Made by a program: the position numbers and the translations under genes. A stretch of DNA of 61,521 nt from a virus (lineage: Duplodnaviria > Caudoviricetes). Location: IMG/VR virus record IMGVR_UViG_3300042465_003931, positions 1 through 61,521 of that record. One strand, written 5' to 3'. Below the pieces are notes generated by a model, which made no database searches, had not been told where the DNA came from, and saw only the letters and a program-made list of their open reading frames with translations. The stretch's first letter is position 1; each line of letters starts with the position of its first letter. This document shows, in pieces, positions 1 through 61,521 of this stretch.

Positions 1-105
1 GACGTTCTTCGACGAAACGGGCGTGCTAAGAACAGCAAACAACGATGTCCCACGCTTCGACTACAACCCTGCTACGCTGGCGGCTCAGGGGCTGTTGATT
101 GAGGA
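1..105 (+). repeat. exact copy of 60300..60404
   Basis: Base-by-base identity for 105 nt, then abrupt divergence. Confidence 0.95.
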
Positions 106-1159
106 GCAGAGGACGAATCTGCTGTTGCAGAGTGAGGCGTTTAATACCACTTGGACGACTTCAAACGCAAGCATTACCGTTAATTCAACGACTGCACCCA
201 GCGCGACAACCACGGCGGATACGTTGGTTGAGGACATTGCGACCAACTTTCACTACGTTCAGCAAACCGTTTCCGGCACGACCAACACGAACAACTACAC
301 GATGTCGTGCTTTATTAAAGCGTCGACACGAACTGCCGCACGGATTGCAATCGTCGAAGGCACTACCTTCTCCCGGCAGGTTCGGGCAACTGTTGATTTG
401 TCGGCGGGCACTGTTGTTGGCGCTGCGCTGAATAGCGCGACCCTAACTGCCGCAACCATTCAGGCGGTTGGCAATAGTTGGTACAGGGTAACCGTTGCGG
501 GTGTTTTGGGTGGCACCGACACGAATATCCTTTGCGTTGTGTACGTCGGGCAAAACACGGCAACTTTTAGCTACACCGGCGATGGAACGTCTGGCCTGTT
601 CCTCTGGGGCGCTCAACTCGAAGCCGGAGCCTTCCCCACCAGCTACATCCCCACCACCACCACAGCCTTGACCCGTGCGGCAGATGTGGCGAGTGTGAAT
701 ACGTTGAGTCCTTGGTTTAATGCGACGGCCAGCACCATTTACGCGGAGTGGACGAACATTGCTGCGGCGATACCGACGGGCGCTTTGCAAACAGTTTCAG
801 AGATTACTGAAGCAACACAAAACAATTTTTACCGACTTTTCCAAAGTCAAGGCGCTGGAACGAAAGCATCCACCAATATGTTTTCTGGTGGCGTAAACCC
901 GGGGCGTATTGATGCAGGAGGCGCGTATTCAAACGCTACAATAAAAGCCGCATCTGCCTTCGCTGCGTCGGATCGAGCACTGTCAGCGAACGGCGGCGCT
1001 TCCGTTACTTCTGCAACGGGTGCTTTGCCTGTGGGAGTAACAGTATTTAATCTTGGTCATACTGGTTCTGGATTAAACAGCGTCAACGGCTACCTCCGCC
1101 GCATCGCCTACTACCCCGTGCGCTTGCCCGACGCACAGCTCCAAGCCATCACCGCCTGA
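2..1159 (+). CDS. head-spike/fibre protein, allele A (5' end cut by the window start; N-terminus corresponds to 60193-60299)
   Basis: The frame is open from base 2 (TFFDETGV...). It has PRFDY...GLLIEEQRTN, AQLEAGAFPTSYIPT...RAAD and C-terminal RRIAYYPVRLPDAQLQAIT motifs shared with 1169..2449 and 60193..61443. Ser/Thr/Ala/Gly-rich, beta-like. Confidence 0.75.
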   Translation, partial: TFFDETGVLRTANNDVPRFDYNPATLAAQGLLIEEQRTNLLLQSEAFNTTWTTSNASITVNSTTAPSATTTADTLVEDIATNFHYVQQTVSGTTNTNNYTMSCFIKASTRTAARIAIVEGTTFSRQVRATVDLSAGTVVGAALNSATLTAATIQAVGNSWYRVTVAGVLGGTDTNILCVVYVGQNTATFSYTGDGTSGLFLWGAQLEAGAFPTSYIPTTTTALTRAADVASVNTLSPWFNATASTIYAEWTNIAAAIPTGALQTVSEITEATQNNFYRLFQSQGAGTKASTNMFSGGVNPGRIDAGGAYSNATIKAASAFAASDRALSANGGASVTSATGALPVGVTVFNLGHTGSGLNSVNGYLRRIAYYPVRLPDAQLQAITA

Positions 1160-1237
1160 GGAGCACACATGAGTCTTTCACAGAACTACCCAACAACAAG
1201 ACCCACTCTGACGCTTGACTTTGCCAAGGCTAAGCGT
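1111..1237 (+). repeat. exact copy of 61395..61521 (window end)
   Basis: 127-nt identity covering the fibre stop codon, the RBS and the start of the next gene. One mismatch just upstream (1110/61394). Confidence 0.95.
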
Positions 1238-2449
1238 GTTGATCCGCGTGTGACGTTCACCAGAGCCAGCACAGCGACCTATTTCGACGCCTCTGGCACG
1301 CTGCGTAGTGCTGCTGACAATGCTCCTCGCATTGACTTCAATCCGTCTACGCTGCTGTGTCAGGGGCTGTTGATTGAGGAGCAGAGGACGAATTCCATTC
1401 GGAATAACACGATGGTTGGGGCTGTTGCGGGGACGCCAGGGACTGCTCCGACGAATTGGTTTTTTTCCGTAGCAACGACTACTGGTTTAACCACAGAGGT
1501 AGTTGGAACTGGTGCCGAAAGTGGTATTACTTACGTTGACTTGAAGGTATCTGGAACTGCTGTTGGGGCTGGTTCACTTACGATTGCTTTTGAGCCGAAC
1601 ACGCAAACAGTTGCGTCACAAAATCAAGTCTGGACCGTTTCAATGTATCGTCGGCTTATGGCCGGATCATTTAATGGTTTAACTCCGACGATAACAAACA
1701 TTTTCTTAAATAGCTACACAGCAGTTGGCACATTTGATGCAGCCTCCACAAGTCAAGTACGAAGCGAAGCTACTCCAACCAGCGCTGCGCTGAATACGCA
1801 GCGCTCTACTCTCACAGGCACACTAAGCAGCGCCACAACCGCTAGAGTAAATGCGGGCATGTTTTTTAGCATTGCCAACGGCGCGGCCATCGACATCACC
1901 CTCCGCATCGGCCTACCCCAGCTAGAACTCGGCGCATTCGCCACCAGCGTCATCCCCACCACAACAACAGCCCTGACACGCAGTGCTGATGTTGCCAGTG
2001 TTACGACGCTGAGTCCTTGGTTTAATGCGAGTGAAGGGACGTTGTTTGCGGAGGCCCAGTGGTTTGGCCTTTCCACAAATGATTATTACGCGGCGTTAAA
2101 TGACGGCACTGCATCTAATCTAATTGGTATTGGTGTAGCGTCTTCAGGCTCTTGGCGGTTTTTAGTGAACAACGTCGGGAATATTGAAGCTAGTATTTCT
2201 TTTGGCGTTGTAACGGCAAACACTGTTTTTAAACATTCAGGAGCATATAAAGTAAACGACTTTGCTGCGTGCGTAAACGGGGGGTCTGTAGGAACGGACA
2301 CAAGCGGCGTGGTTCCGTCAGGAATTACTACACTGTCGCTTAACGCAAGCCACCTCACTACCAATCAATTTAACGGCTACCTCCGCCGCATCACCTACTA
2401 CAACACCCGTCTTCCCAACGCGCAGCTTCAAGCGCTAACAGCCCCGTGA
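1169..2449 (+). CDS. head-spike/fibre protein paralog C
   Basis: GAGGAG RBS. TLTLDFA...FTRASTATYFD...GLLIEEQRTN and QLELGAFATSVIPT motifs. Paralog of the flanking fibre gene. Confidence 0.75.
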   Translation: MSLSQNYPTTRPTLTLDFAKAKRVDPRVTFTRASTATYFDASGTLRSAADNAPRIDFNPSTLLCQGLLIEEQRTNSIRNNTMVGAVAGTPGTAPTNWFFSVATTTGLTTEVVGTGAESGITYVDLKVSGTAVGAGSLTIAFEPNTQTVASQNQVWTVSMYRRLMAGSFNGLTPTITNIFLNSYTAVGTFDAASTSQVRSEATPTSAALNTQRSTLTGTLSSATTARVNAGMFFSIANGAAIDITLRIGLPQLELGAFATSVIPTTTTALTRSADVASVTTLSPWFNASEGTLFAEAQWFGLSTNDYYAALNDGTASNLIGIGVASSGSWRFLVNNVGNIEASISFGVVTANTVFKHSGAYKVNDFAACVNGGSVGTDTSGVVPSGITTLSLNASHLTTNQFNGYLRRITYYNTRLPNAQLQALTAP

Positions 2450-2652
2450 CTCCCGACCCCTTCAACGCCCTGATTGAGGAAACCGACCCCGCAGTGCTGG
2501 CTGAAGGGCATCGTTGGGTTCAACAACATTTTTACAACGAGTTGGCTGCTGAGGTGGCGGACCTAAAGCAGACCAGCGGAGAGCTTTGCGAAGTCTGCGG
2601 CTGGCGGTTTGTTGTGCCGGGGCGCGGATGCCTAAACTGTGAGAAAGGATGA
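2446..2652 (+). CDS. small hypothetical protein with two CxxC pairs
   Basis: GTGA overlap with the upstream stop; CEVC...CLNC. Confidence 0.5.
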   Translation: MTPDPFNALIEETDPAVLAEGHRWVQQHFYNELAAEVADLKQTSGELCEVCGWRFVVPGRGCLNCEKG

Positions 2653-21330: not shown

Positions 21331-24300
21331 ATGCCGACCTACGAAGTTGAGATCCCCGGAAGAGGTACTTTTCTTGTTGAGTCACCGTCACCACTAAGTG
21401 ACATTCAGGCCTATCAAGCGGCCATTTCTCAGCAACAAGAGCCCGCCGAAGAGCCTCAACTTGTTCAAACGTCGGCCCCGGCGGAGGCTGGCTTTTTCCC
21501 TTCTGTCAAACGAGGCTTTCTTCAAACGCAAATGCTGGGAGGAGACATCCTTCCAGCGATGGTTGGGCGTCTGTTTGGAGCGGATGAGTTTGCGGAGCGT
21601 CAACTCAGGGAAGCCGCTGAGACGCAGCAGCGTATCCAGCGGGAAGTTCCGGTAGGTATTGAGTCCTACAAGGACATTGGCAGCATCTCTGACGCTTGGT
21701 TGTATGCCAAAGAGGCTGTTGGTGAGTCTCTTGCCTCCATCATCCCATCCTTGATCACTGGTGGTGTCGCTGGTGTGCTGGCCCGTCCGGCGATGGCTGC
21801 TGCAAACACAGCGGCGAAGGAAGCTGCTGAACGGACGCTAATGGGCGCGGCCATGGGCATGGGTCCGCCTACCCAGGCCGCTTTGCAGAAGGCAAAGACT
21901 GAAGCTATTCAGGCCGGTGTTCAGGCGGCAGAAAAGGTTGCGCTTCGGTATCAGGCAATAGGCGGCTTTGCCGGTTCTGCCGCGATGAACGTGCCAGAGG
22001 TCTACCAGAACGTCCTTCAGGAAACAGGCAAAGAGAGCATTCCCGCCGCGCTGATCGCTGGTGGTTTCAACGCTGCGCTTGATGCAATTCTGCCAATCAG
22101 CCTTCTGGCAAGGGCAAGAAAAGCAGGGATTCCTGAAAATGAACTGATGGCTGCGTGGTACAAGCGCGGCGCTGCTGGACTTGGCAAGGGGTTCCTTGTT
22201 GAAGGTGCCACTGAAGCCGCGCAAGAGGCTTCTTCGATTGCAGCCGAAAACTTCGTCGCTGAAAACAGTGACGTCTTCAACAGCAAGAATCTTGAGCGCG
22301 TCATAAACGCCGGTATCAGGGGCGGTATTGGTGGTGGCGTCATCTCTGGCGCGGCGGACATTGCGCTTGGCAAAGCCCCTCCCGCAGAGATCAGTGACCG
22401 GCAGAGGGCCGAACAACTGCAACGCGACATTCTTGGAGACATCCAGAAGGCGCGGGCAGAGCAGACCCTTGAAGAACAAAAGGTCGCAGAAAAGGCTCGA
22501 TTGGAGGCAGAACGTCCTCCATCCGTTGATCAATTGGTTGACGAAGCTCGTCAGTCAGATGGATACGGCAGGCTTGAGCGGGTCAAACAACGTCTGTTGA
22601 CGTTCAAGTCCACTCCTGAAATCAAGCAAAGTCTTGAGGTCATCAAGGAGCTTCAAAAACGGATGGTTGTGGAGGATGTCCAAAGAAGGGCTCCTGCCGA
22701 ACCGACGGTCATGGACGACAAGATGATCCGCTCACTTGGGTTTGTCCCGGGCGGAGAAAAGAGCGTTTACGCGCAGTTACTTGGACGAAGTATTGCGGAC
22801 CCGGAAGCGCTTGCGTTCTTGTCGAAGTACGCTCAGACACGGGCCAAGCCTCAAACCAAGCAACGCATTGAAAGTTTCCTTGCTGTAAACCAAGCCAGGA
22901 CGGCTCCTCTCACTGCGGAAGAAATCGCAGGGACTCAGCCGACCGGCGAGATTGTCATTGGTGGGCAGAGAAAAGAGAAAGAACCCAAAGCTCCAACAGA
23001 ACCCAAGGGCCCGACAGAGCGCCAGGAAGCTACTGAGTTTGGCAAAGCCATCGGAGCCACAGGTGAAGATGCTCTTCGCGGACGGGTAAACGTCAAGGCT
23101 CAGTCTGCGGCGAAGCAGGGAGACCTTCCCGGCGTCGTGGAAGCTCTCTCGGAAAGCAAGAGCCCGATTGTCCGAGAGGTTGCGGCTCGGTCTCGTGAAC
23201 TGGATACCGGCATCGTCATTGATGAAAACGCCAGCGAGCAATACGAAGGCAAGAGCGCTGTCATTCAGCAGTTGTCGATAGACGGCGCAAAGATGCACTT
23301 GGACGCACTGAGCAAGGTGCGCGAGTTGTCTGCCCAGGTTGATGCTTTGCCGGATGGCGCACAACTGCCGGATGACGTCATCCTGGCGCGTATTCCTGCT
23401 GTGGATAACGGTCAGGATGTTGGATCGCTGACGCTGGACGACATCTCCCGCAGCGGCAACAGCATGTTTGATGACCTTCCCAGTGGATCCTACCCGCTGA
23501 GAACCAAGGAAGACTTCGTCAAGCTGCGTGATGATTTGGAAGGCTTGACGCAAAGGCTTGGTGAGGAAAAACTGACCTTGACCTCTACCGGCTCTTCAAA
23601 GATGGTCGGTGTGTCTGGTGTGTATGACGCAGCCAATGACGTCATTCGGGTTCCCACTTATTCCGCCAAGGATGAGCGGGTTCTGGCCCATGAGCTTGTT
23701 CATGCTCAGGCGCTGAAGGCAATCGCCAATCCCACGCCAGCACAAAAGCCTGCGGTGGAACGACTGCAAAAGCTGTATCAGCATGTCAAAAACGTACTGA
23801 GCGCGAAGGAAAAGGTTCCTTATGGCATCTCTAGCGTTCAGGAGTTTGTGGCAGAAGGCTTGTCCAATCCTCGCTTCCAGTTCCAACTGAAGAGGATCAA
23901 GTACGAAAACCAATCCGCGTGGTCTTCGTTTGTTGAGTCGATTGCAAAACTGCTTGGCCTAAAGAAGGACAACGCCTTCACCGAGCTTCTATCGATCTAC
24001 TCCGAACTTGCCCCGCCCGCGACGCCCGCAAAGCCCGGTAAGCCAAAGGGCGCGATCATGGGATCGGCCCTGCTCAGGGATGTAAACGAAGCACTTGGCG
24101 GGCTCAGTCCATCTCTGTTGTCGGAGTTCTCATTTCGGGTCGAGACAAAGCGCAGAGACAAGAAGGGTCGTGCCATCACGCAATGGCGCAATCCTTTGAC
24201 TCCCAAGGGACCACTGTTCAGGTCCGGCGGAGAGGGTGACTACATCGAGATTGCACGTGCTCTTGAGGAGAGGGGATACCTTGAGCCCGGATCTGTTGAG

Positions 24301-27300
24301 CGCGATCCAACCGACGCCGGAGAACGCGCAAAGGATCTGATCAAGTCCGCATTGTCTGGCGACGAAGTTCTGACCATTGATGAACAAACGGAACAGGGTC
24401 GACTGTTTGCAGAGCGCAGGGATCGGGAAGAGCAAAAGCGTCTGGACGCTCTCAGGGAAAACGGCGAGTATGACTCGCTGGATGATGACTCTGCGCTTGA
24501 GGCAGAGAACGAGCGGCTTGCAATCATCGAAGAGGCAGATCTCTCTGCTTCTGATGTAAACAGTCTCGAAGACGACGACATTCCGTTCGACTTCACCCTT
24601 GAGGACATTCAGAATGAACAAAAGCAAGTTTCTGGAAAAGCTGCTGAAGCTGCCAGCAAAGAGGGCGCTGCGGCTCCTGAAGCTGGAGAAGCTGCGCCGG
24701 GGGCTGTAAGCGAGCCTCCATTCACCCTGGCAGAGGCTCAGAAGCCAAAGCCCATCAAGTTGTCCAAGGAGACCGAAGCCAAGATCGATGAACTTGGCAA
24801 GATCCTTGAGCGAATCATGTCCAAGATGGGCATGAAAAATGTCGCGTTAAGCATTGTTCAGGATCTGCGTGCAAACGGTGAGTACGCAAACAGGCTGATC
24901 AAGTTGGCCTTGGACGCAGAAAGCCCTGTCAGGGATCTGAGGCATGAGTCTCTCCACGCGATGAAGGAGCTTGGCTTCTTCAGTGATGCTCAATGGGCAG
25001 CGCTGGAGAAGCAGGCCCGCGACAAGTGGATCGACAAGTACCTCAAGAAGAGAACCTCTACCATCGACGGTCAGCAAATGTCGCGCTATGACGCGTACAT
25101 GAAGCTGTACAACAACAACGAAGATCGGGTGATCGAAGAGGCAATCGCTGATGCGTTTGGTGACTTCGACATCACCAAGCCTCCTCCAGGCCTAACGCAG
25201 GCCATCCTTCGCCGGATGCGCGACATGTTCCGCGCCATCAAGGAAGCGATGGGGATGGCGAACATCGACAACGCAGAAGACATATTCCGTCGAGTTGAGA
25301 AGGGTGAGCTGAAGGAGCGTATGCCTGCGGTTCAGCGGCAGGCGATGGCAAGTCTGAGAGAAGGGGCAGAACAAACCTCCGTCGGGATCATGGACGGCAG
25401 GATCAAGGTTGACCTTGGGAAGAATGTCACCGTCGACAAGGTTGGCGGGTACTTCGACAACTTGATCAAGGAACAGTTTGGTAAGTCGCTGGATTACAAC
25501 GACAAGGCCGCGATGGATCGCGCCATCAAGATTGCAACCGACGAAGTTGCCCTTCAGATGAAGGAGCGGAAGTCGGGTCTTGATTGGTACGAACAGGACG
25601 TCAAAAAAGCGTTCAAACAGACCATCGAGATCATCCCGGAGCTAAAAACTGCTCAAAAGCGCATTCTGTTTAGCGTTGTTGCGGGGATCATGTCCCCACA
25701 AACGATTGCGCGAGACAACTGGTTCATTGCAGCAAAGGCGTTTGAACATTACATCAAGACCGGGGACATCCCTGGTATCAATCCAGACAACGGCAATCTC
25801 TGGATGGGCGGCACGCAGTCAGCGAACAAAAAGGTTCAGCTTGATTTCCTCAACGCAATGGTCAAGGCGATGGGGGAGAAGAAGGCCGTCAAGTGGCTGA
25901 TGGAAGATCACACGGTCAAAGAGATCAACCAGTTTCGTAAGCAGTACGGTGGGATCGTTAGCGGCATCGAAGGAAAACTGACCGACACGCGCCCAGGCTT
26001 GTATGCCTTTGGCCCGAAGATTGGCCCGTTTGTTTCAAACCTAAACGGCATTCACGATGTCACCGTTGATAAGTGGATGACCAGATCCTTCAACCGTTAC
26101 TTCGGGACAATGACAGGCCCGGACGGGAAGATCATTGATGCGCCCACCGAACCACAACGGCGGGCGGTCAAAGCACTTGTAAACGAGGTTGCAAAGAATG
26201 CAAACATCAAGCCCTATCAAGTCCAGTCTGTCCTCTGGTTCTTCGAGCAGCGCCTCTTCACCAAGCTCGGAGCGCAATCTCCGTCCTATGGGTTCAGCGA
26301 CGGATCAAAGCGATTCCAAGACTACGCAAGAGATCGAAGCGGTAAGGAGAGTGTGCAACCTGCTGCTGGAGCAGATGGAGCAAGACTGAGCCTGCGCGGT
26401 CCCCAACCAGACATCCGCTACAGCCTGCGCGACAAACTGGGGATGTACTCCGAGCTTGAGAACAAGATCGAGGTCGGTTCAAACAAGGCGCCGGCAGCAT
26501 CTTGGAAGGCATACATCAACGGTCTTACCCAAAAGGGTGTCAAGCCAGAAGAGATCGAATGGTCTGGCGTGAAGGATTGGCTGGATCTCCAAAAGGGCAT
26601 GGTCACCAAAGAAGAGCTTCTCAACTACCTGAAGCAGGGTGGCGTGCGGGTTGAGGAGACGGTGCTGGGTACACCTCTCAAATACGAGGGGCGCAAACTT
26701 CTCAACAAAAAGTATTCAGATGCTGTAGATGCGGCAGAAGCTGCGGGCGTATCTATCAATCCCATTTACATCGAAACACTTCCAGCCGATCAAAGAGCGC
26801 CAGAGGAGCAGTCTGTTCTTGATGCGTTCAACGCAATCAAAGAGAATCAGGATGAAGTATCTCTTGAGGACTTGGATCGGCCAGCAAAATACAGCACTTA
26901 TGTCCTGCCCGGCGGTGAAAACTACCGGGAGTTGCTGCTGACGCTGCCGAGCGAATCTAGAGGCAAACATGAGCTTGCCAAGCAAACTTGGATTAAATTC
27001 CAAGAGCAGATGCGAGAAAAGTACAACGGATCTTTTGCGTGGCGGCGCAAAGCCACAAAGGAAGAAAAGGCCGAAGCGGATCGCCTTGTTGCTGAGCTTG
27101 ACAAAGCCGTTTATGGAATTGTGGACTACAAGTCTCGCCACTGGGATCAGTCCAACGTAATTGCCCACATCCGTCTAAACGACCGCACCGATGCCAATGG
27201 CAATAAGGTTTTGTTTGTAGAGGAGATCCAATCTGACTGGGGGCAGGAAGGAAAGAAGAAGGGGTTTAAGCGCGGCGAGCGGATGGAAGAAGGTCAGCTT

Positions 27301-30300
27301 ATATACGACCCTGGAGAGCGCGAGCGCATTCCCGTTGCTCCCTTCGTCACCAAGACCGAAGGCTGGCTGAACCTCGCCCTCAAGCGCATCATGGTCATGG
27401 CCGCAGAAGGTGGCTATGACAAGGTGGCTTTTGTAAGCGGCAAGCAGTCTGCTGAGCGGTATGACCTGAGCAAGCAGGTTGACAGCATCACCTACGAGCC
27501 CACATCGAAAGGGTACTACATCAACGTCATGGCGGGCGGCCAGAACATCAAGAACGGCGACTTCACGACTGCCGAGCTTGAGGACATTGTGGGCAAAGAA
27601 ATTGTCCAGAAGATGGAAGCTCGCGAGGGCAAGCAGGAATTTGACCCAGAAGTCGAGCCCGACTTGGCAGAGACGCGATCCTTGTCAGGCCTCGACCTCA
27701 AGGTCGGCGGCGAAGGCATGAAGACCTTCTACGACACCATCGTCCCGACAGCAGTGAAGAAGCTGTTGCCGAAGGTGGACGGTGGGCAGATGGAGATGGT
27801 TGATGTGCAGGTGCCGCCCGCATCAGCTATGTATCCAGACAAAACGACACTGCGTGAAACTATTCAGCAGTCTGGCTTCGATGTCACTCCCGACATGAAG
27901 CGCAAGGTTGAAACAACTGGCCTGCCAAGGTTTAGTCTGCGTGAACCCGGTCAGCCGACAACGCGCACAAATGTTATTGCAGCCATGAATGCCGCGCAAG
28001 AAAAGCAGCCGTATATGAACTGCCAGCTATGCGTGCAAATGGCAACTGGAATCCCAAAACTTCGTGAGTTGCCAAAAGTTAAAACGGCCAAGATTGGAGA
28101 TATTTACACGTTTGGCGAGACTAAAGATTCGGCTTTGCATTACGCCGTAGATATTGGTGAAGGAGATGTTGTCGAGGTTGAAGGGTGGGGCGAGCCAGTT
28201 CGTATTGTTCCGCTGCGCGATGTTGTCGCAGAATACGATCAACCGTCCGCAATTCGTCGCCCGCCCGATACTGCTTACAGTGCAAACGCATTTTCCAAAT
28301 ACAGCCTGCGCGAAGGCCCGCGCATGAACCTGCGGGATCAGACCGATCCTGCTATCCGCGCTCGTGTTGCGCAGACCATCACATCCCGGGAAGAGAAGAC
28401 GTTCGCTCAAAGGATCTTGGAGGCAATCTCTCCGAAGTCCTTCAGCACCTTCCGGCAAAACGCTCTCAACAGGTACAACTACCTGAGCGTTCTTGGCAAG
28501 AAAAAGGTTGCCATGATGGGTGGTGCCGATCTTCTGGCTGACGCAGATGCTGAGGCGGCGGCTCTTCTGTCCGATCTTGCTGCCGGTGTTACCGCCTCTG
28601 CTCTTGGTGTCAATGATCGCAAGGGCGGATCACCTGTTTACAAGCACTACTTCGTTGTCGAGGCAAACGGTCAAACACTGTCTCAGAAGTACACCAGCCG
28701 GTCAGCAGCCGAAGCAGCCGCCGCGAAGGTAAACGGTGTTGCGAAGGAGCGCGGCTACACAACGGTCGACAACTTCAATAACACCGTCAAAGGACCGGCT
28801 GCGATCTTTGCTCCGCTTGCCAAGTACAACGACCCGTATGCCTACGAACTGTTCAGCTTCTACTCCGGCGTGAAGCGTGGCAATCGGTTCATGTACAAAA
28901 TTGATCCGAAGACCGGCAAGCCTGTTGAAAAGCTGTTTGAACCTGCCGACGTCCAAGAGGCGGCAAAGCTGGAGATCCAATACCCGGAGTTCAAGGACAT
29001 CCACAAGGAGTGGATCGCGTACAACGACAAGCTCGTTGACTTCATGCGCGACACTGGGATCATCAGTGCTCAGAACGCGGCAGAGTTCAAGGCTCACGGA
29101 GACTACTTCCCCTTCTACCGGCAGATCGATGGCGATCCAGATGCAGTTGGACCGAAGATCTTCCAATCGATTGCTGCCGTCAAGCCGCCGAAGAAGCTCA
29201 AGGGCTCCGAAGCTCCTCTCGGAGACTTCCTTGAGAACATCGTGCGCAATACTCAATCCGCTGTTCAGGCGGGGATGAAGAACGTTGCTGCCCGCCGCGC
29301 TGCTGAGCTTGGTATGGATGTGGGCGTGGTCGATGAGATTGGTCCTGGCATCACGCCTGACCCTGTCACCTCGTTCTATGTCTTGGAGAACGGTCTCAAG
29401 AAGCACTACGAAACCAGCGATCTTCTGTTTATAAACGCCATCAAGAGCCTGAACATGCCGGATCTTCCGTTCATTGGCATGTTTGCTGGTCCGGCCAATC
29501 TGCTGCGGACGTTGGTGACGAAGGATCCTGGATTCATTCTGGCGAACCTGATGCGAGACTCCATGTCTGCCTGGGTGACTTCAGGCGTGAAGATGACACC
29601 AATCGTTGACACGGTCGCCAACTTTGGTCGAGCGTTGGCAAAGAAGTCTGGCGATTACGAAGCCCTGCTCAACGCTGGTGTCATCGGCGGGTATGAGTTT
29701 GCCCAGAACGTTGAAACAAGCGGCAGAGAGTTTGGTGGAGAGCTTCGCCGTCGGGCTGGAACCCCAACCGTTCGGGAGCAGATCACAAAGCCGATCACCT
29801 CTTTGTGGGGCGCTCTGGAACAAGCGAGTACAGCTTCTGATGCAGCAACTCGGATGGAGGTCTACAAGAAGACTCTTGCAGAGACCGGCAACGAGGCAGA
29901 GGCTTTGTTCCGCGCTCTTGAGGTGATGAACTTCAACCGCAAGGGATCGTCTGCTGTGGTCCGTATCTTGACCGCTGGGGTTCCGTTCCTCAATGCTCGG
30001 ATGCAGGGCTTGGACATTCTGTACCGGGCGGCAATCGCTCCATCGTTGGACAAGTCGGCAAGTGATCGCGCAAAGCAGATCCAGAAGACCTTCTTTGTGC
30101 GTGGCTCCATGATCATGGCAATGTCAGCCATGTACTGGCTGATGACGCATGACGACGAAGAATATAAGAAGCAGGAGCAAGAAACCAAGGATAACTACTG
30201 GCTTCTTCCTTCGTTGGGTGTGAAGATCCCGATCCCGTTTGAAGTGGGTGTTCTCTTCAAGGTAATCCCGGAGCGGATCATGGCCTACACAATAGGCACC

Positions 30301-31017
30301 GATACCGCGAAGGATTTCAAAGACTCGATGATCCGACAGGTCACAAACACGTTGGCGTTCAATCCAATCCCTCAGACGTTTATACCAATCATCGAGACCT
30401 ACACCAACTTCTCGTTCTTCACCCGTCGACCCATCATTCCTCAAGGCCTGGAGAACGTTGCCCCGGAGTATCAAGTTGGGCCGGGCACATCAAAGTTGGC
30501 AGAAGGTATCGGGAAGACCATTGGCATGTCTCCGATGCTCATCGATCAGTTGATCGGCGGGTACACCGGGACGATGGGCATGTACGCGGTTGACCTAATG
30601 GACTCCATCTACAACACGATGGCAGACTCTCCAAAGCCGTCTAAACGCTTTGAGCAAATGCCGGTTATTCGCAGATTTTCGGTCGATCCGGAAGCGCGTG
30701 GAGCGGTAACCGCTTACTACGATCTCCGCAATGCTGTAGACGAGGCGGTTCGTACCACGAACCTTCTTGAAAGGACGATGGACTACAAGAACTACGGCGA
30801 GTTCATGAAGGACAACATGAAGCTCCTTGCCGCCAAGGACTACGTAAGCGACATGGACAAGACGCTGAAGGAACTTCGAGAGATGAAGACTCAGATCCGC
30901 ATCTCCACATTGAGCGCGGATCAGAAGCGGGACAACATCACGTCCATCAACAGGATGGAAAACGCTCTAGTCAAGAACATCCAAGAACTCAAGAAGATGT
31001 ACCAGTCAGAATCTTGA
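21331..31017 (+). CDS. giant polyvalent ejected protein (3228 aa) with C-terminal LPD38-like domain
   Basis: N-terminal Gly/Ala membrane-like helices; two HExxH motifs (HELVH 23689, HESLH 24943); HhH-like, EEIQSDW and papain-like modules; C-terminal KDNYW...IPIPFE.G.LF...PER. Confidence 0.8.
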   Translation: MPTYEVEIPGRGTFLVESPSPLSDIQAYQAAISQQQEPAEEPQLVQTSAPAEAGFFPSVKRGFLQTQMLGGDILPAMVGRLFGADEFAERQLREAAETQQRIQREVPVGIESYKDIGSISDAWLYAKEAVGESLASIIPSLITGGVAGVLARPAMAAANTAAKEAAERTLMGAAMGMGPPTQAALQKAKTEAIQAGVQAAEKVALRYQAIGGFAGSAAMNVPEVYQNVLQETGKESIPAALIAGGFNAALDAILPISLLARARKAGIPENELMAAWYKRGAAGLGKGFLVEGATEAAQEASSIAAENFVAENSDVFNSKNLERVINAGIRGGIGGGVISGAADIALGKAPPAEISDRQRAEQLQRDILGDIQKARAEQTLEEQKVAEKARLEAERPPSVDQLVDEARQSDGYGRLERVKQRLLTFKSTPEIKQSLEVIKELQKRMVVEDVQRRAPAEPTVMDDKMIRSLGFVPGGEKSVYAQLLGRSIADPEALAFLSKYAQTRAKPQTKQRIESFLAVNQARTAPLTAEEIAGTQPTGEIVIGGQRKEKEPKAPTEPKGPTERQEATEFGKAIGATGEDALRGRVNVKAQSAAKQGDLPGVVEALSESKSPIVREVAARSRELDTGIVIDENASEQYEGKSAVIQQLSIDGAKMHLDALSKVRELSAQVDALPDGAQLPDDVILARIPAVDNGQDVGSLTLDDISRSGNSMFDDLPSGSYPLRTKEDFVKLRDDLEGLTQRLGEEKLTLTSTGSSKMVGVSGVYDAANDVIRVPTYSAKDERVLAHELVHAQALKAIANPTPAQKPAVERLQKLYQHVKNVLSAKEKVPYGISSVQEFVAEGLSNPRFQFQLKRIKYENQSAWSSFVESIAKLLGLKKDNAFTELLSIYSELAPPATPAKPGKPKGAIMGSALLRDVNEALGGLSPSLLSEFSFRVETKRRDKKGRAITQWRNPLTPKGPLFRSGGEGDYIEIARALEERGYLEPGSVERDPTDAGERAKDLIKSALSGDEVLTIDEQTEQGRLFAERRDREEQKRLDALRENGEYDSLDDDSALEAENERLAIIEEADLSASDVNSLEDDDIPFDFTLEDIQNEQKQVSGKAAEAASKEGAAAPEAGEAAPGAVSEPPFTLAEAQKPKPIKLSKETEAKIDELGKILERIMSKMGMKNVALSIVQDLRANGEYANRLIKLALDAESPVRDLRHESLHAMKELGFFSDAQWAALEKQARDKWIDKYLKKRTSTIDGQQMSRYDAYMKLYNNNEDRVIEEAIADAFGDFDITKPPPGLTQAILRRMRDMFRAIKEAMGMANIDNAEDIFRRVEKGELKERMPAVQRQAMASLREGAEQTSVGIMDGRIKVDLGKNVTVDKVGGYFDNLIKEQFGKSLDYNDKAAMDRAIKIATDEVALQMKERKSGLDWYEQDVKKAFKQTIEIIPELKTAQKRILFSVVAGIMSPQTIARDNWFIAAKAFEHYIKTGDIPGINPDNGNLWMGGTQSANKKVQLDFLNAMVKAMGEKKAVKWLMEDHTVKEINQFRKQYGGIVSGIEGKLTDTRPGLYAFGPKIGPFVSNLNGIHDVTVDKWMTRSFNRYFGTMTGPDGKIIDAPTEPQRRAVKALVNEVAKNANIKPYQVQSVLWFFEQRLFTKLGAQSPSYGFSDGSKRFQDYARDRSGKESVQPAAGADGARLSLRGPQPDIRYSLRDKLGMYSELENKIEVGSNKAPAASWKAYINGLTQKGVKPEEIEWSGVKDWLDLQKGMVTKEELLNYLKQGGVRVEETVLGTPLKYEGRKLLNKKYSDAVDAAEAAGVSINPIYIETLPADQRAPEEQSVLDAFNAIKENQDEVSLEDLDRPAKYSTYVLPGGENYRELLLTLPSESRGKHELAKQTWIKFQEQMREKYNGSFAWRRKATKEEKAEADRLVAELDKAVYGIVDYKSRHWDQSNVIAHIRLNDRTDANGNKVLFVEEIQSDWGQEGKKKGFKRGERMEEGQLIYDPGERERIPVAPFVTKTEGWLNLALKRIMVMAAEGGYDKVAFVSGKQSAERYDLSKQVDSITYEPTSKGYYINVMAGGQNIKNGDFTTAELEDIVGKEIVQKMEAREGKQEFDPEVEPDLAETRSLSGLDLKVGGEGMKTFYDTIVPTAVKKLLPKVDGGQMEMVDVQVPPASAMYPDKTTLRETIQQSGFDVTPDMKRKVETTGLPRFSLREPGQPTTRTNVIAAMNAAQEKQPYMNCQLCVQMATGIPKLRELPKVKTAKIGDIYTFGETKDSALHYAVDIGEGDVVEVEGWGEPVRIVPLRDVVAEYDQPSAIRRPPDTAYSANAFSKYSLREGPRMNLRDQTDPAIRARVAQTITSREEKTFAQRILEAISPKSFSTFRQNALNRYNYLSVLGKKKVAMMGGADLLADADAEAAALLSDLAAGVTASALGVNDRKGGSPVYKHYFVVEANGQTLSQKYTSRSAAEAAAAKVNGVAKERGYTTVDNFNNTVKGPAAIFAPLAKYNDPYAYELFSFYSGVKRGNRFMYKIDPKTGKPVEKLFEPADVQEAAKLEIQYPEFKDIHKEWIAYNDKLVDFMRDTGIISAQNAAEFKAHGDYFPFYRQIDGDPDAVGPKIFQSIAAVKPPKKLKGSEAPLGDFLENIVRNTQSAVQAGMKNVAARRAAELGMDVGVVDEIGPGITPDPVTSFYVLENGLKKHYETSDLLFINAIKSLNMPDLPFIGMFAGPANLLRTLVTKDPGFILANLMRDSMSAWVTSGVKMTPIVDTVANFGRALAKKSGDYEALLNAGVIGGYEFAQNVETSGREFGGELRRRAGTPTVREQITKPITSLWGALEQASTASDAATRMEVYKKTLAETGNEAEALFRALEVMNFNRKGSSAVVRILTAGVPFLNARMQGLDILYRAAIAPSLDKSASDRAKQIQKTFFVRGSMIMAMSAMYWLMTHDDEEYKKQEQETKDNYWLLPSLGVKIPIPFEVGVLFKVIPERIMAYTIGTDTAKDFKDSMIRQVTNTLAFNPIPQTFIPIIETYTNFSFFTRRPIIPQGLENVAPEYQVGPGTSKLAEGIGKTIGMSPMLIDQLIGGYTGTMGMYAVDLMDSIYNTMADSPKPSKRFEQMPVIRRFSVDPEARGAVTAYYDLRNAVDEAVRTTNLLERTMDYKNYGEFMKDNMKLLAAKDYVSDMDKTLKELREMKTQIRISTLSADQKRDNITSINRMENALVKNIQELKKMYQSES

Positions 31018-42482: not shown

Positions 42483-42743
42483 ATGCCATCGTCACCAGGG
42501 TACAAGAGGAACTACGAGCAAGAGTACAAAACGCAAGTAGGTAGGGAAGAGCATCCGAGCAGGATGGAAAGACAAAAAGCCCGCCGAAAGATGGATGCAA
42601 ACGGCGTTGACCGGGCGGGCAAGGATGTCTCTCATAAGAAAGCTCTATCCAAGGGCGGCAAGAACAATGACGGGGTGAAGCTCCAATCCCCATCCAAGAA
42701 CAGGAGCTTCCCGAGAACCAAGTCTGGAGCGATGCGTGATTGA
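42483..42743 (+). CDS. small HNH-like protein
   Basis: AAGGAG RBS; RNY..EY, ARR, GKDVSHK..LSKGG.N......S.S.NRS. Confidence 0.55.
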   Translation: MPSSPGYKRNYEQEYKTQVGREEHPSRMERQKARRKMDANGVDRAGKDVSHKKALSKGGKNNDGVKLQSPSKNRSFPRTKSGAMRD

Positions 42744-50884: not shown

Positions 50885-51109
50885 ATGACGCGTAAACAAA
50901 GGAGGCTGTATGAGTTCATACAGGCGTACATCAAGAGGTACGGGCTGAGCCCTTCGTATCATGTGACGGCCAAGGCGTTGGGCTTGAGGTCGAAGTCCAA
51001 TATTCACAGGATGGTGTGTGATTTGATAGCGCAGGGGTTCTTGGAGAAGGATCCCCGGAAGTTTTATGCGATCAAGGTGAAGAATGCTTCTGTCGAAACA
51101 GGAGATTGA
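50885..51109 (+). CDS. LexA-type DNA-binding domain protein
   Basis: MT.KQ..LY.FI..YI...G.SPS......LGL.S.S..H.....L...G.L; no peptidase domain. Confidence 0.7.
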   Translation: MTRKQRRLYEFIQAYIKRYGLSPSYHVTAKALGLRSKSNIHRMVCDLIAQGFLEKDPRKFYAIKVKNASVETGD

Positions 51110-57886: not shown

Positions 57887-58798
57887 ATGGCAATTTCTCG
57901 CGCACAACTTCTCAAGGAACTGCTGCCCGGCCTGAACGCTTTGTTCGGTCTGGAGTACAAGAAGTACGGCGAAGAGCACAAGGAGATCTACGAAACGGAG
58001 ACCTCCGACCGCTCGTTTGAAGAGGAGACCAAGCTCTCCGGCTTCAGCGCTGCTCCGGTGAAAAACGAAGGCCAAGCTATCGCGTATGACAATGCGCAGG
58101 AAGCCTGGACCGCTCGTTACAACCACGAGACCATCGCAATGGGCTTCTCCATCACCGAAGAGGCGATGGAAGACAACCTGTACGACAGTCTGTCGGCGCG
58201 GTATACCAAGGCCCTGGCTCGGGCAATGGCTTACACCAAGCAGGTCAAGGCAGCGTCCATCCTGAACAACGGTTTCAACGCCGCTTTCACTTACGGTGAC
58301 GGCAAGAGCCTGTTTGCGACGGATCACCCGCTGGTCTCTGGTGGCACCAACAGCAACCGCCCCACGGTGGCCTCGGACCTCAACGAGACCTCCCTGGAGA
58401 ACGCCGTCATCCAGATCGCTGGCTGGACTGATGAGCGTGGTCTGCTGATCGCTGCCAAGCCCCGGAAGCTGATCGTTCCTCCGGCCCTGATGTTCGTTGC
58501 GACGCGCCTGCTGGAGACCAACCTCCGCGTCGGCACCACCGACAACGACATCAACGCGCTGAAGAACAATGGCAGCATCCCGGAAGGCTACACGGTCAAT
58601 CACTTCTTGACCGACACAAACGCTTGGTTCCTCAAGACCGACGTCCCCAACGGTCTGAAGCACTTTGTGCGTGTAGCCATGTCGACGTCGATGGACGCCG
58701 ACTTCGACACCGGCAACAGCCGGTACAAGGCCCGCGAGCGCTACAGCTTCGGGGTCAGCGACAGTCTGGGCGTGTACGGCTCCCCCGGCGCAAGCTGA
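57887..58798 (+). CDS. major capsid protein (HK97 fold, Mu gpT-like)
   Basis: MAISRAQLLKELLPGL, DG..LF...HP, P..LIVPPAL, YKARERYSFG; strong codon bias; followed by a terminator. Confidence 0.88.
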   Translation: MAISRAQLLKELLPGLNALFGLEYKKYGEEHKEIYETETSDRSFEEETKLSGFSAAPVKNEGQAIAYDNAQEAWTARYNHETIAMGFSITEEAMEDNLYDSLSARYTKALARAMAYTKQVKAASILNNGFNAAFTYGDGKSLFATDHPLVSGGTNSNRPTVASDLNETSLENAVIQIAGWTDERGLLIAAKPRKLIVPPALMFVATRLLETNLRVGTTDNDINALKNNGSIPEGYTVNHFLTDTNAWFLKTDVPNGLKHFVRVAMSTSMDADFDTGNSRYKARERYSFGVSDSLGVYGSPGAS

Positions 58799-59227: not shown

Positions 59228-60181
59228 ATGAGCACGTTTACCCCCGGTCCGGGCACCAAGTATCTTCTCTATTCTGGTGGAACCGTACCAACGGGTTCTG
59301 CTAATGGTGTCCTATATCTTGACGCAAACAAGGTAATTACCAGCGGTACTGCGTTGGCCTTTAACGGCACGACGCTGAGTGCCCCTGCTGTACAGGTTGA
59401 CAACCTCAACTTGGATGGCAACACGCTCCTTGCCACCGATACCAATGGTGGCATAAACCTTACTCCCAACGGTACAGGACGTGTCACTGTTACCAATCTG
59501 ACGACGACGTCGCCTCGGATTGTTACCGGCATCAACGACACGAATGGCAACGAGCTGTTCTTGTTCACTGCCACAGCTTCAGCGGTCAATGAGGTGACGC
59601 TGGCTAATGCTGCCACTGGTTTTGGTCCCCGGTTTACAGCGACGGGCGGTGACATCAACATCAATTTGGTGTTTGAGGCCAAAGGCACTGGTCAGGTGCA
59701 AGAGCGCATCACGTCCACCAACTATGCGCTGGCTTCTCAGTTTGACGTTGGCACAGAGCCCAACGACATTTCGCTGAACCAGTATCTTGGCACGCTGGCG
59801 TTCCAGAGTGCTGAAGCGGTGTCGGTGGGTTTCATTAGATCTAACGCAACCAATGGTTCGGGCTATGCGTTGGGCGCTGGTGGTGCCATCACGCAAGCGA
59901 CTGGCCGCACCACTGGTGTCACTGTCAATGCTGCCTGCGGTGCCATCACGCTGGTGTCTGCTGCCGGGTCTACGTCGCCTTCTAGCTTCACTGTGACGAA
60001 CAGCAGCGTAGTGGCGACGGACGTCATCATCCTCAGCCAGCGCAGCGGCACAGACAAGTATGTGTTGTTGGTGACGGCGGTTGGTGCTGGCTCGTTTGAA
60101 ATTACGGCATACACCACTGGTGGCACGACGACGGAACAGCCTGTCATCAACTTTGCCGTCATCAAAGCTGTTGCTGCTTAA
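59228..60181 (+). CDS. fibre-like virion protein
   Basis: TVPTGSANGVLYL segment shared with 4004..4906; DNLNLDGNT...TNG.I.L.PNGTG repeat; Thr/Gly-rich. Confidence 0.65.
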   Translation: MSTFTPGPGTKYLLYSGGTVPTGSANGVLYLDANKVITSGTALAFNGTTLSAPAVQVDNLNLDGNTLLATDTNGGINLTPNGTGRVTVTNLTTTSPRIVTGINDTNGNELFLFTATASAVNEVTLANAATGFGPRFTATGGDININLVFEAKGTGQVQERITSTNYALASQFDVGTEPNDISLNQYLGTLAFQSAEAVSVGFIRSNATNGSGYALGAGGAITQATGRTTGVTVNAACGAITLVSAAGSTSPSSFTVTNSSVVATDVIILSQRSGTDKYVLLVTAVGAGSFEITAYTTGGTTTEQPVINFAVIKAVAA

Positions 60182-60192: not shown

Positions 60193-61443
60193 ATGAGTCT
60201 TTCACTAAACTATCCCACCATCAGCCCTTCGTTGCTGCTGGACTTTGCCAACAGCGGCAGGCTTGATCCTCAAGTCACTTTCACTCGTAGCAGCACGGCG
60301 ACGTTCTTCGACGAAACGGGCGTGCTAAGAACAGCAAACAACGATGTCCCACGCTTCGACTACAACCCTGCTACGCTGGCGGCTCAGGGGCTGTTGATTG
60401 AGGAAGCACGCACCAATTCCATTCGGAATAACACTGGTGTGGGGGCAGTGGCTGGTACGCCGGGGACAGACCCGACTAATTGGGTAAATACTATTGCGGC
60501 TGGTATTACGCAGCAAATTGTCGGAACAGGAACTGAAAACGGCATTACATACATCGACTATAAGTTTTCTGGAACTGCTGCTGGCGCTACCGTTATTCGT
60601 TTTGATGGAGAGACACAAGTTGTTGCGTCATCTGGTCAGGCGTGGACTGGCAGCACTTACGTCAAACTTGTAGCGGGGTCTCTTACAAACCTTGGTTGCT
60701 CGTTAAATATGCGTCAAGGTCTTGCCGCTGGTGGCCTTGTGTTGAATACAGACGTAGCTTTTACGCCAACCTCTGCCGCGCTAAATACTCAACGAATTGT
60801 CAACTCCGTTGCCAGTATGCAGGTAACAACGGAACGCATAATTAACCGCATCATTATTAATAGCACTGGTGCCATCGACATCACCCTCCGCATCGGCCTG
60901 CCCCAACTCGAACTCGGTGCCTTCGCAACTTCCGTCATCCCCACCACCACCACAGCCCTGACCCGTGCGGCAGATGTGGCGAGTGTAAATACGTTGTCGC
61001 CTTGGTTTAATAGCGCGTCTGGTACGATTTACGTTGAAGCGTCAATTCCTTTTACAACAGCAAATAGTCGCGGTCCAATTCGTTTTGATGATGGAACTGA
61101 CAGCAATCGCATCATGATGCGCAATGGCGGCGCAAATTCACGTTTTGACGGACGTGTAGTGTCTGGTGGCTCGAGCGTAGCAAACTTAGAGTCTGCTGCA
61201 ACTGCAATCACTGAAAACACAACTTTTAAGGCTGCTTTGGCATATGCGGTAAACGACTACTCGATGTCACTCAACGGCGGTACGCCACTAACAGATACAA
61301 GCGGAGCATTGCCCATTGGTTTAAGCAGGCTTTTGATTGGCAACGCAGAAAACACAACAAACCCTGCTGGATCGCTAATCCGCCGCATCGCCTTCTACCC
61401 CGTGCGCTTGCCCGACGCACAGCTCCAAGCCATCACCGCCTGA
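60193..61443 (+). CDS. head-spike/fibre protein, allele B (complete)
   Basis: PSLLLDFA...FTRSSTATFFD...GLLIEEARTN; same flanks as allele A but different internal domains. Confidence 0.75.
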   Translation: MSLSLNYPTISPSLLLDFANSGRLDPQVTFTRSSTATFFDETGVLRTANNDVPRFDYNPATLAAQGLLIEEARTNSIRNNTGVGAVAGTPGTDPTNWVNTIAAGITQQIVGTGTENGITYIDYKFSGTAAGATVIRFDGETQVVASSGQAWTGSTYVKLVAGSLTNLGCSLNMRQGLAAGGLVLNTDVAFTPTSAALNTQRIVNSVASMQVTTERIINRIIINSTGAIDITLRIGLPQLELGAFATSVIPTTTTALTRAADVASVNTLSPWFNSASGTIYVEASIPFTTANSRGPIRFDDGTDSNRIMMRNGGANSRFDGRVVSGGSSVANLESAATAITENTTFKAALAYAVNDYSMSLNGGTPLTDTSGALPIGLSRLLIGNAENTTNPAGSLIRRIAFYPVRLPDAQLQAITA

Positions 61444-61452
61444 GGAGCACAC

Positions 61453-61521
61453 ATGAGTCTTTCACAGAACTACCCAACAACAAGACCCACTCTGACGCTT
61501 GACTTTGCCAAGGCTAAGCGT
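61453..61521 (+). CDS. start of fibre paralog C (repeat of 1169..1237, truncated by the window end)
   Basis: Identical to 1169-1237. Confidence 0.8.
   Translation, partial: MSLSQNYPTTRPTLTLDFAKAKR

What the first reader, a model, noticed from the sequence alone, without database searches (positions are those of the whole stretch)
1..1237. The two window ends are different alleles of one fibre gene
Seen: 1-105 equals 60300-60404 and 1111-1237 equals 61395-61521. The enclosed segments (106-1110, 1005 nt; 60405-61394, 990 nt) are largely unrelated yet both stay in frame, differing by 15 nt. Inference: this is a circular or permuted genome of about 60.3 kb whose population carries at least two interchangeable versions of a host-contact protein, and the assembly walked through both. 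The 127-nt end overlap equals a commonly used assembler k-mer, consistent with a graph bubble. An alternative reading is a longer tandem fibre array.
Basis: partly seen in the sequence, partly recalled or inferred. Interest (0 to 1): 0.85.

Follow-up and report, generated by a model that had tools for sequence, protein, structure and literature searches.

The report
Two fibre-gene versions at contig ends
The two ends of this phage contig repeat because the assembler walked round a circular genome of about 60.3 kb and passed through two alternative versions of one sugar-binding fibre gene, an ordinary sign of strain variation in host-recognition genes.

Summary
The window is a whole IMG/VR virus record, classed 'linear', CheckV 99% complete.

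Three paralogous genes sit here: A (60193-61443), B (2-1159, 5' open) and C (1169-2449). All match phrog_5939 'tail protein' and the RcGTA head-spike fibre Rcc01080. A folds as two lectin-like beta-sandwiches.

An independent k=31 contig from the probable source run joins A's 3' half, through the shared 127 bases, to a continuation that fits C and not B, at backbone depth (17.7 against 18.8). So the main genome is U-A-C, not a tandem A-B-C array. The record ends exactly 127 bases after the last A/B difference, as a k=127 graph vertex would.

Public proteins show further versions of this locus. Some keep A's N-terminus and second domain but carry another first domain; others show the reverse combinations.

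Not shown: B's link to the backbone on its left, and B's abundance. This is a known kind of phenomenon and of modest interest.

The parts
59228..60181 (+). Gene U (317 aa), the conserved left neighbour of the fibre locus; function unknown
   Evidence: ORF. phrog_18251, unknown function. No Pfam hit and no meaningful PDB hit. Relatives in 20 IMG/VR loci. The Atlas gives only viral hypothetical clusters.
60193..61443 (+). Fibre gene version A (416 aa), the form carried by the main genome
   Evidence: ORF. phrog_5939 tail protein, E 2e-62. Rcc01080 head-spike fibre, E 5.2e-8. X1 contigs at depth 18.8 (59000-60900) and 17.7 (60954-61521 and beyond). AF2 model with two beta-sandwich domains.
60300..60404 (+). 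Left shared block, identical to 1-105; codes residues 37-71 of the conserved N-terminal region
   Evidence: exact identity. (residues 31-90 are conserved across 123 homologues).
60405..61394 (+). A-specific segment (990 nt): lectin-like domain 1, conserved centre and lectin-like domain 2
61395..61521 (+). Right shared block, identical to 1111-1237: last 16 codons and stop of the fibre gene, a 9-nt spacer, and the first 69 nt of gene C. It is the first 127-mer after the last A/B difference.
2..1159 (+). Fibre gene version B (385 aa seen, 5' end cut by the record start), the alternative form
   Evidence: ORF. phrog_5939, E 5.5e-71. Rcc01080, E 4.7e-35 over residues 1-241. Domain 1 is about 95-100% identical per 20-column bin in P0001 and P0004 and 91% identical in P0002.
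106..1110 (+). B-specific segment (1005 nt)
1169..2449 (+). Gene C (426 aa), a resident paralogue directly downstream, 54% identical to A
   Evidence: Its start is what follows A in the X1 contig.
60871..61033 (+). Conserved central block of A (equivalents: B 614-743, C 1886-2026), a boundary at which many different upstream sequences join in other samples
   Evidence: identity. (residues 231-280 are the most conserved). table 7 (X4 has loose ends 'before' 60870, 60871 and 60872; joints to 60871 in X1 and X4). (residues 253-270 have pLDDT below 50).

Best explanation
The record is one circular or circularly permuted phage genome of about 60.3 kb that the assembler read a little more than once. 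At one locus, just downstream of the capsid genes and gene U, the sampled population carries at least two interchangeable versions (A and B) of a fibre protein.

The protein has a conserved N-terminal part, two lectin-like beta-sandwich domains separated by a highly conserved stretch of about 45 residues, and a conserved C-terminal tail. The path through a k=127 de Bruijn graph began in the arm for version B. It ran through the shared backbone (gene C onwards, round the circle to gene U), entered the arm for version A, and stopped at the vertex where the two arms merge. So the main genome reads U-A-C, and the variant most likely reads U-B-C.

Shown:
- the exact repeats
- the A-to-C junction in an independent assembly
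- the end of the record at the merge 127-mer
- the family and fold of the proteins
- independent swapping of the two domains among natural relatives

Inferred:
- that B sits on the same backbone
- that B is the minor form
- that the versions arise by homologous recombination at the conserved blocks
- that they differ in the host surface sugar they bind
For: (1): exact 105- and 127-nt repeats. The record ends exactly 127 nt after the only flanking difference (1110/61394).

(2): whole virus record, CheckV 99%, no end repeat recognised.

(3), run X1 (may be the source). Record 1 (2052 nt, depth 18.8) covers 59000-60900, that is U into A. Record 7 (724 nt, depth 17.7) covers 60954-61521 plus 156 nt more. 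A joint is reported from 61521 back to 60384 with 21 letters on that side, followed by a 13-letter loose end behind 60404. The lengths add up: 568+122+21+13 = 724.

(4): C 1360-1380 equals A 60384-60404. C 1381-1393 equals the 13 loose letters. 1238-1359 is 122 nt. B 85-118 equals C 1360-1393 (34 nt), so a k=31 contig would end at 1393 if B is also in the sample. B itself would have re-aligned from 60300 over 105 nt, not 21.

(5): P0122 and P0123 are 100% identical to A in every bin over the N-terminal residues 1-69. From the conserved centre to the C-terminus their bins are 88-100% identical to A. Domain 1 is only 14-83% identical. P0125, P0127 and P0129 keep A's domain 1 with another domain 2. 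P0001 and P0004 keep B's domain 1 with another domain 2. P0006 keeps a B-like domain 2 with another domain 1.

(6), X4 record 24: the shared right block 61379-61521 is preceded by 216 nt unlike A.

(7): of 112 related loci with family hits, 92 show one copy, 11 show two tandem copies and 0 show three. U-A-C or U-B-C gives two copies, as in relative L009 (U, B-like, A/C-like, E94).

(8): fibre family and lectin-like folds.
Against: - The record starts 105 nt, not 127 nt, before the A/B divergence. A clean k=127 bubble arm would start with the last shared 127-mer. I can only suppose that the B arm was a dead end with a gap in cover.
- No contig or read was seen that joins gene U to B, and only 105 identical bases tie B to the backbone on the left.
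- B's presence and depth in X1 were not shown directly. The only hints are a contig break at 1393 and one 1132-nt contig of depth 7.23. That contig has 5 differences from A at 60954-61010, the same number that B has there, but its identity is unproven.
- The 122 letters between 61521 and the re-aligned part of record 7 were not printed, so the match to C rests on lengths and on 34 letters.
- Only Logan contigs were available, not raw reads, so the two arms' depths cannot be compared.
- Which assembler and k were used is recalled knowledge of common practice, not a tool result.
Confidence: 0.75

Rival explanations
1. B belongs to a different, co-occurring related phage, not a variant of this backbone. 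That phage shares only the conserved ends of the fibre gene and the start of the next gene, and the assembler joined it to this genome at the shared 127-mer, making a chimeric end.
For:: X1 holds several related sequences at other depths (8.48, 7.23, 6.16, 59.6) that align only to the conserved blocks, so relatives are present in the same sample. The record does not begin with a full shared 127-mer, so B's left connection to the backbone was not made by the assembler. The family is very large and mosaic (7473 of 8000 scored candidates at E<=1e-10).
Against: B's flanks are identical to the backbone over 105 + 127 nt, plus 15 of the next 16. A diverged strain in X4 differs at 21 of 650 places in the same region (record 20). 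The right block includes a non-coding spacer and 69 nt of gene C. C's start is only about 69% identical even to its own paralogue A. P0122 and P0123 show that versions with A's exact N-terminus and another domain 1 do exist.
Confidence: 0.15
2. A, B and C stand in tandem on one molecule (U-A-B-C), and the record is broken by 38 missing bases inside B's 5' end.
For: The geometry allows it. 61453-61521 would be the first 23 codons of B, and 38 nt more would bring the frame to position 2, so B would be in frame (sequence). Tandem pairs of this family exist in 11 of 112 related loci.
Against: In X1 the contig that leaves A through the shared block continues in a way that fits C and not B, at backbone depth. 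B would need a chimeric 5' end, with its first 69 nt identical to C's and then at least 105 nt identical to A's. No locus with three copies was found among 112, though many loci are truncated. A rare U-A-B-C variant beside the main U-A-C form is not excluded.
Confidence: 0.05
3. A programmed switching system makes the two versions within one genome: a diversity-generating retroelement, or an invertible or shufflon-type segment as in Mu and P1.
For: Phage fibre genes are the classic targets of such systems (established knowledge).
Against: No reverse transcriptase match (PF00078) and no serine invertase match (PF00239) in the record. A and B lie in the same orientation. They differ by unrelated sequence over about 1 kb rather than by point changes. 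The main genome lacks B between A and C.
Confidence: 0.02

Closest known systems
Head-spike fibre Rcc01080 (GhsB) of the Rhodobacter capsulatus gene transfer agent RcGTA (PDB 6TB9 and related entries)
   Same: Sequence homology: B residues 1-241 match chain residues 52-286 at E 4.7e-35, and A matches at E 5.2e-8. According to passages of PMC7296036, that fibre mediates attachment of the particle to the host's polysaccharide capsule. This fits the lectin-like folds found here.
   Different: Rcc01080 has 325 residues and aligns only up to the conserved centre. A, B and C carry a second lectin-like domain. Its N-terminal Ile/Leu-Gly repeat, which binds the pentameric base, is not seen in A or C (N-termini). 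Gene U shows no detectable likeness to a solved base protein. Whether the proteins here sit on the head or on the tail is unknown; PHROGs calls the family 'tail protein'. Only residues 2-10 of Rcc01080 were resolved, and the rest was modelled.
Metaviromic islands and strain-level variation of phage host-recognition genes (Mizuno, Ghai and Rodriguez-Valera 2014, PMC3909814; abstract and outline seen)
   Same: Within one phage population that is otherwise nearly identical, host-recognition genes or parts of them differ between co-occurring lineages. Here one backbone carries versions A and B (and P0122 and P0123 elsewhere) of a fibre gene.
   Different: That work rests on read recruitment. Here no recruitment could be measured because only contigs were available. 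The evidence here is an assembly path that contains both versions.
   Same: Variable receptor-binding segments are flanked by conserved stretches at which homologous recombination can swap them. Here three conserved blocks flank two variable domains, and natural relatives show each domain swapped on its own.
   Different: Unrelated protein family and fold. Recombination at the blocks is inferred from mosaic patterns, not observed.
Concanavalin A-like lectin, LamG and CBM domain pairs (galectin-8, laminin LG4-5, neurexin LNS, CBM40, CBM22)
   Same: Foldseek probability 1.00, E 3e-6 to 5e-4. Single-domain matches reach TM by target of 0.46-0.63. Precomputed PF13385 and PF02018 hits appear on some homologues.
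   Different: About 10-20% sequence identity. No Pfam family reaches E 0.1 on A, B or C themselves. Sugar binding is not tested.

Membership tests
Assembly-graph bubble (two versions of one locus walked in one path, k=127) | The path ends at the first k-mer shared by both arms after their last difference | tested here: met
   The last 127 nt equal 1111-1237, and the base before them differs (1110 against 61394).
Assembly-graph bubble (two versions of one locus walked in one path, k=127) | The path starts with the last k-mer shared by both arms before their first difference | tested here: not met
   Only 105 shared bases precede the divergence at the record's start, 22 fewer than 127. A dead-end arm with a gap in cover would explain it; that is inference.
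Assembly-graph bubble (two versions of one locus walked in one path, k=127) | An independent assembly joins one arm directly to the backbone on both sides | tested here: met
   X1 record 1 runs from U into A. Record 7 runs from A through the shared block into a continuation that fits C.
Assembly-graph bubble (two versions of one locus walked in one path, k=127) | Read depth of the two arms adds up to the backbone depth | not testable with these tools
   Only Logan contigs were served, with one depth figure per contig.
RcGTA head-spike fibre (Rcc01080-like) | Significant sequence similarity to Rcc01080 | tested here: met
   E 4.7e-35 for B and 5.2e-8 for A.
RcGTA head-spike fibre (Rcc01080-like) | N-terminal repeated (iso)leucine-glycine peptide that binds a pentamer of base proteins | tested here: not met
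   The motif is described. The N-termini of A and C show no Leu-Gly repeat. B's N-terminus is not in the record.
RcGTA head-spike fibre (Rcc01080-like) | Attachment to capsid vertices | not testable with these tools
   Only the gene position just after the capsid genes is known.
PHROG 5939 'tail protein' | Profile match | tested here: met
   E 2e-62 (A), 5.5e-71 (B) and 3.1e-59 (C), each to profile positions of about 346-761 of 801.
Concanavalin A-like lectin / LamG fold | Beta-sandwich fold matching solved lectin, LG or CBM domains | tested here: met
   Model pLDDT 82, with two beta domains. Foldseek gives 91 matches at E<=0.001, led by galectin-8, laminin LG4-5, neurexin and CBM40.
Diversity-generating retroelement | Reverse transcriptase gene in the element | tested here: not met
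   No PF00078 match in the record.
Invertible fibre segment (Gin/Cin type) | Serine invertase and oppositely oriented alternative gene ends | tested here: not met
   No PF00239 match. A and B are both on the + strand.
Direct terminal repeat of a linear phage genome | First and last bases of the record are the same sequence | tested here: not met
   The last 127 nt match 1111-1237, not 1-127. IMG/VR classes the record as linear without end repeats.

The most novel reading that the evidence does not exclude
The fibre could be a two-slot cassette system. Three nearly invariant blocks would serve as fixed recombination joints: the N-terminal anchor, a central stretch of about 45 residues predicted disordered in the monomer, and the last 20 or so residues. 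Through these joints, co-circulating phages and the resident paralogue C would exchange each of two lectin-like domains independently. One backbone would then present many sugar specificities in a single water body, on a fibre related to the capsid-mounted head spike of a gene transfer agent rather than to classical tail fibres.
Probability: 0.3. Interest if true: 0.5.

Novelty: new member of a known kind. Interest (0 to 1): 0.3.

Why it matters
For users of the record: it is a complete genome that is 1,222-1,237 bases too long. It is classed 'linear' only because its repeated ends are offset by a variable gene. Either 1-1237 or 60300-61521 should be trimmed before the genome is used, and gene B should be annotated as an alternative version rather than a third gene.

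Biologically, it is a clean natural example of two host-recognition versions on one phage backbone. The fibre family is very large, with thousands of members. Its two lectin-like domains are swapped independently at conserved joints. Such pairs are useful starting points for host-range experiments with laboratory strains. The phenomenon itself is well known.

Tried and rejected
Searches for near-identical copies:
- GenBank phages had no match to 59228-61521 at blastn sensitivity.
- An exact 38-nt pattern from the shared left block had 0 matches in IMG/VR.
- Searches for B in IMG/VR and in JGI metagenome contigs gave nothing closer than 56% protein identity, so no second contig shows B with its left flank.
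- The tools warn that records of or near the window's genome may be left out.

A guess that failed: I expected runs holding 0.40-0.45 of the sampled words to carry the backbone without A. X6 holds A in patches at 100% identity and low depth, so the guess was wrong.

Holes in cover are not used as evidence: X2 60615-60870, X4 61040-61379, and X6 upstream of 60105.

The X1 joint 60404 to 60871 (depth 6.16) was first taken for B. B does not align at 60871-60903, so that contig is more likely a C-like variant; its identity is unknown. The 1132-nt X1 contig (depth 7.23) could be B but is not proven to be.

Gene U:
- No Pfam family.
- No meaningful PDB hit.
- Only unnamed viral clusters in the Atlas.
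- Its role (fibre base?) is left open.

Programmed switching was checked and rejected: DGR and invertase. No tRNA genes were found.

Not used: complex prediction, the search of protein representatives, RNA tools and the genome-contig scan. Supplements of the two papers were not opened.

Full report
**Observation.** The window is a whole IMG/VR virus record of 61,521 bases. IMG/VR classes it 'linear' (no end repeats found), and CheckV estimates it 99% complete. Bases 1-105 are identical to 60300-60404, and 1111-1237 are identical to 61395-61521. The left match stops after 105 bases. The right match, counted back from the last base, stops after 127 bases. The right match resumes after one difference (1110 against 61394) for 15 more bases (1095-1237 = 61379-61521 at 99%).

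The enclosed 1005 and 990 bases each keep one frame open (ORFs 2..1159 and 60193..61443). They are unrelated except for a central block of about 130 bases at 83% identity.

**What lies there.** There are three paralogous genes:
- A: 60193-61443, 416 aa
- B: 2-1159, 385 aa, with its 5' end cut by the record start
- C: 1169-2449, 426 aa

A is 41% identical to B and 54% identical to C. All three match PHROG 5939 'tail protein' (E 2e-62, 5.5e-71 and 3.1e-59). None matches a Pfam family at E 0.1.

By sequence, the nearest solved entry is the head-spike fibre Rcc01080 of the Rhodobacter capsulatus gene transfer agent (B: E 4.7e-35 over residues 1-241; A: E 5.2e-8). Passages of PMC7296036 say that this fibre attaches by a short N-terminal peptide to a pentameric base on the capsid vertices. 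They also say it mediates binding to the host's polysaccharide capsule. Only residues 2-10 were resolved; the rest of that fibre was a computed model.

An AlphaFold2 model of A with 123 aligned homologues (mean pLDDT 82) shows two beta-sandwich domains, at about residues 98-241 and 276-402. Between them, residues 253-270 have pLDDT below 50. Foldseek places the model among tandem lectin-type pairs and carbohydrate-binding modules: galectin-8, laminin LG4-5, neurexin LNS, CBM40 and CBM22 (91 matches at E<=0.001).

Across the 123 sequences, three blocks are conserved and the two domains between them are variable:
- residues 31-90
- residues 231-280
- residues 391-416

The low-confidence stretch 253-270 lies inside the best-conserved block.

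The surrounding genes are phage genes:
- terminase large subunit (51084-52577)
- portal (52589-55024)
- major capsid protein (57887-58798)
- a 3228-aa protein with a weak virion-RNA-polymerase match (21331-31017)
- primase/helicase (42736-44412)

Gene U (59228-60181) stands directly before A and has no known function.

**Alternatives or tandem?** The geometry alone cannot decide. A tandem A-B-C array missing 38 bases would also be in frame. The deciding evidence comes from Logan contigs (k=31) of four public runs laid on 59000-61521.

Run X1 holds 0.98 of the sampled words and may be the source sample. Two of its contigs matter:
- Record 1 (2052 nt, depth 18.8) covers 59000-60900, so it runs from U into A.
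- Record 7 (724 nt, depth 17.7) covers 60954-61521 with no difference and runs on for 156 bases.

For record 7 the tool reports a joint from 61521 back to 60384, with 21 letters on that side, and a 13-letter loose end behind 60404. The lengths add up: 568+122+21+13 = 724.

One search shows that this is the signature of gene C:
- 1238-1359 is 122 bases.
- C 1360-1380 equals A 60384-60404.
- C 1381-1393 equals the 13 loose letters.

Had B followed, the contig would have re-aligned over the whole of 60300-60404 (105 bases, identical to 1-105) after only 38 bases. The contig's end at 1393 is also where a 34-base stretch shared by B (85-118) and C (1360-1393) stops. A branch there is expected if B is present in that sample.

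So the main genome reads U-A-C at a uniform depth of about 18. The 122 letters between were not printed, so the match to C rests on lengths and 34 letters. X1 may be the same sample as the record, so this is an independent assembly method, not an independent sample.

**The assembly signature.** The record ends exactly at the first 127-mer shared by the A and B paths after their last difference. This is where an edge of a k=127 de Bruijn graph ends. That k=127 is the largest k of a commonly used metagenome assembler setting is recalled, not tested.

The start does not fit as neatly. Only 105 shared bases precede the divergence, 22 fewer than a full vertex. My inference is that the B arm was a dead end on its left because of a gap in k-mer cover, which would also suggest low depth for B. 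I could not test this.

Removing one repeated end gives a circle of 60,284 nt (A form, 1238-61521) or 60,299 nt (B form, 1-60299).

**Is B a version of the same locus?** Direct proof is lacking, because no contig was seen joining U to B. Four lines of evidence support it.

(a) B's flanks are identical to the backbone over 105+127 bases. These include a 9-base spacer and 69 bases of gene C. A diverged strain in X4 differs at 21 of 650 places nearby.

(b) Public proteins P0122 and P0123 are 100% identical to A in every bin over residues 1-69. From the conserved centre to the C-terminus their bins are 88-100% identical to A. Yet they carry another domain 1 (14-83% per 20-column bin). Their contigs could not be inspected. 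Other proteins show the other combinations:
- P0125, P0127 and P0129 keep A's domain 1 with another domain 2.
- P0001 and P0004 keep B's domain 1 (about 95-100%) with another domain 2.
- P0006 keeps a B-like domain 2 with another domain 1.
- P0002 (618 aa) carries B's domain 1 at 91%, fused in front of a complete A/C-type unit.

(c) In X4 the shared right block is preceded by 216 bases unlike A (record 24). Several different sequences abut 60870-60872, the start of the conserved centre (tables 5, 7, 8).

(d) Among 131 related loci fetched, 112 had family hits:
- 92 show one copy.
- 11 show two tandem copies.
- None shows three copies.
- 9 lack the C-terminal marker.

They are lower bounds, because many loci are truncated and a few contigs appear twice (for example L009/L087 and L028/L046). 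The closest relative with a U homologue and two copies (L009) reads U, B-like, A/C-like, E94. L008 reads U, one copy, D68, E94.

**Mechanism.** Shown: a fibre with two variable lectin-like domains between three conserved blocks. Also shown: natural relatives in which each domain is exchanged on its own while the blocks stay nearly identical.

Inferred:
- Homologous recombination at the conserved blocks replaces the cassettes.
- The conserved N-terminus anchors the fibre to the particle.
- The lectin-like domains bind host surface polysaccharide, so A and B forms would differ in host strain range.

Programmed switching is not supported. The record has no reverse transcriptase and no serine invertase. 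Both versions lie on the same strand, and B is absent from between A and C in the main genome.

**Comparison and novelty.** As a phenomenon, this is the known strain-level variation of phage host-recognition genes ('metaviromic islands', PMC3909814; abstract and outline seen). It resembles cassette exchange at conserved motifs in T-even tail-fibre genes; that comparison is recalled, not looked up.

As a protein, it belongs to a very large, mostly unnamed family. 7473 of 8000 scored candidates had E<=1e-10 for B, and 3195 of 8000 for A. The family is related to the RcGTA head-spike fibre. It lacks that fibre's N-terminal Leu-Gly repeat and has an extra domain, so I do not file it as a head-spike fibre proper. 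Whether it sits on the head or the tail is open.

**Verdict.** My odds are:
- two alternative versions walked in one assembly path: about 0.75
- B from a co-occurring related phage: about 0.15
- a tandem array: about 0.05

The finding is real but ordinary. Its main practical value is for correct trimming and annotation of the record, and as a tidy example of two-slot cassette variation in a lectin-like phage fibre. Interest 0.3.

Noticed in passing
window 21331-31017 (+): A single ORF of 3228 aa. It has a weak match to 'virion RNA polymerase' (phrog_2206, residues 757-896, E 9.5e-19). Its C-terminal 680 residues match two PHROGs of unknown function. This hints at an N4-like virion-packaged polymerase or a giant internal virion protein.
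   Followed up: no
window 45624-48988 (-): Two adjacent minus-strand genes (601 and 518 aa). One matches 'aerobic cobaltochelatase CobT subunit'; the other matches 'porphyrin biosynthesis' and ATPase PHROGs. They look like a CobT/CobS-like or MoxR/VWA-like pair carried by a phage.
   Followed up: no
P0002 (618 aa) and many hits of 550-670 aa: Longer relatives carry an extra lectin-like domain fused in front of a complete unit. P0002 has B's domain 1 at 91% followed by an A/C-type protein.
   Followed up: partly
L066:1780-1942 against window 2372-2534: A 163-nt patch spanning the end of gene C and the start of the next gene is 99.4% identical in an IMG/VR contig whose neighbouring matches are only about 92% identical. 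This is a sign of recent local exchange.
   Followed up: no
window 59761: The contigs of X1 and X2 both read G where the record has C (table 3), so even the probable source run's consensus differs from the record at one base of gene U.
   Followed up: no
window 60936-60980: In X1 an 81-nt contig of depth 59.6, about three times the backbone depth, aligns here with 4 differences and unlike flanks. A more abundant relative in the same sample shares the conserved central block.
   Followed up: no
A residues 253-270 (window about 60949-61002): The best-conserved stretch of the whole family is the only internal part of the model with pLDDT below 50. It may fold only on binding a partner or in an oligomer.
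   Followed up: no
whole window: No tRNA or tmRNA genes.
   Followed up: yes
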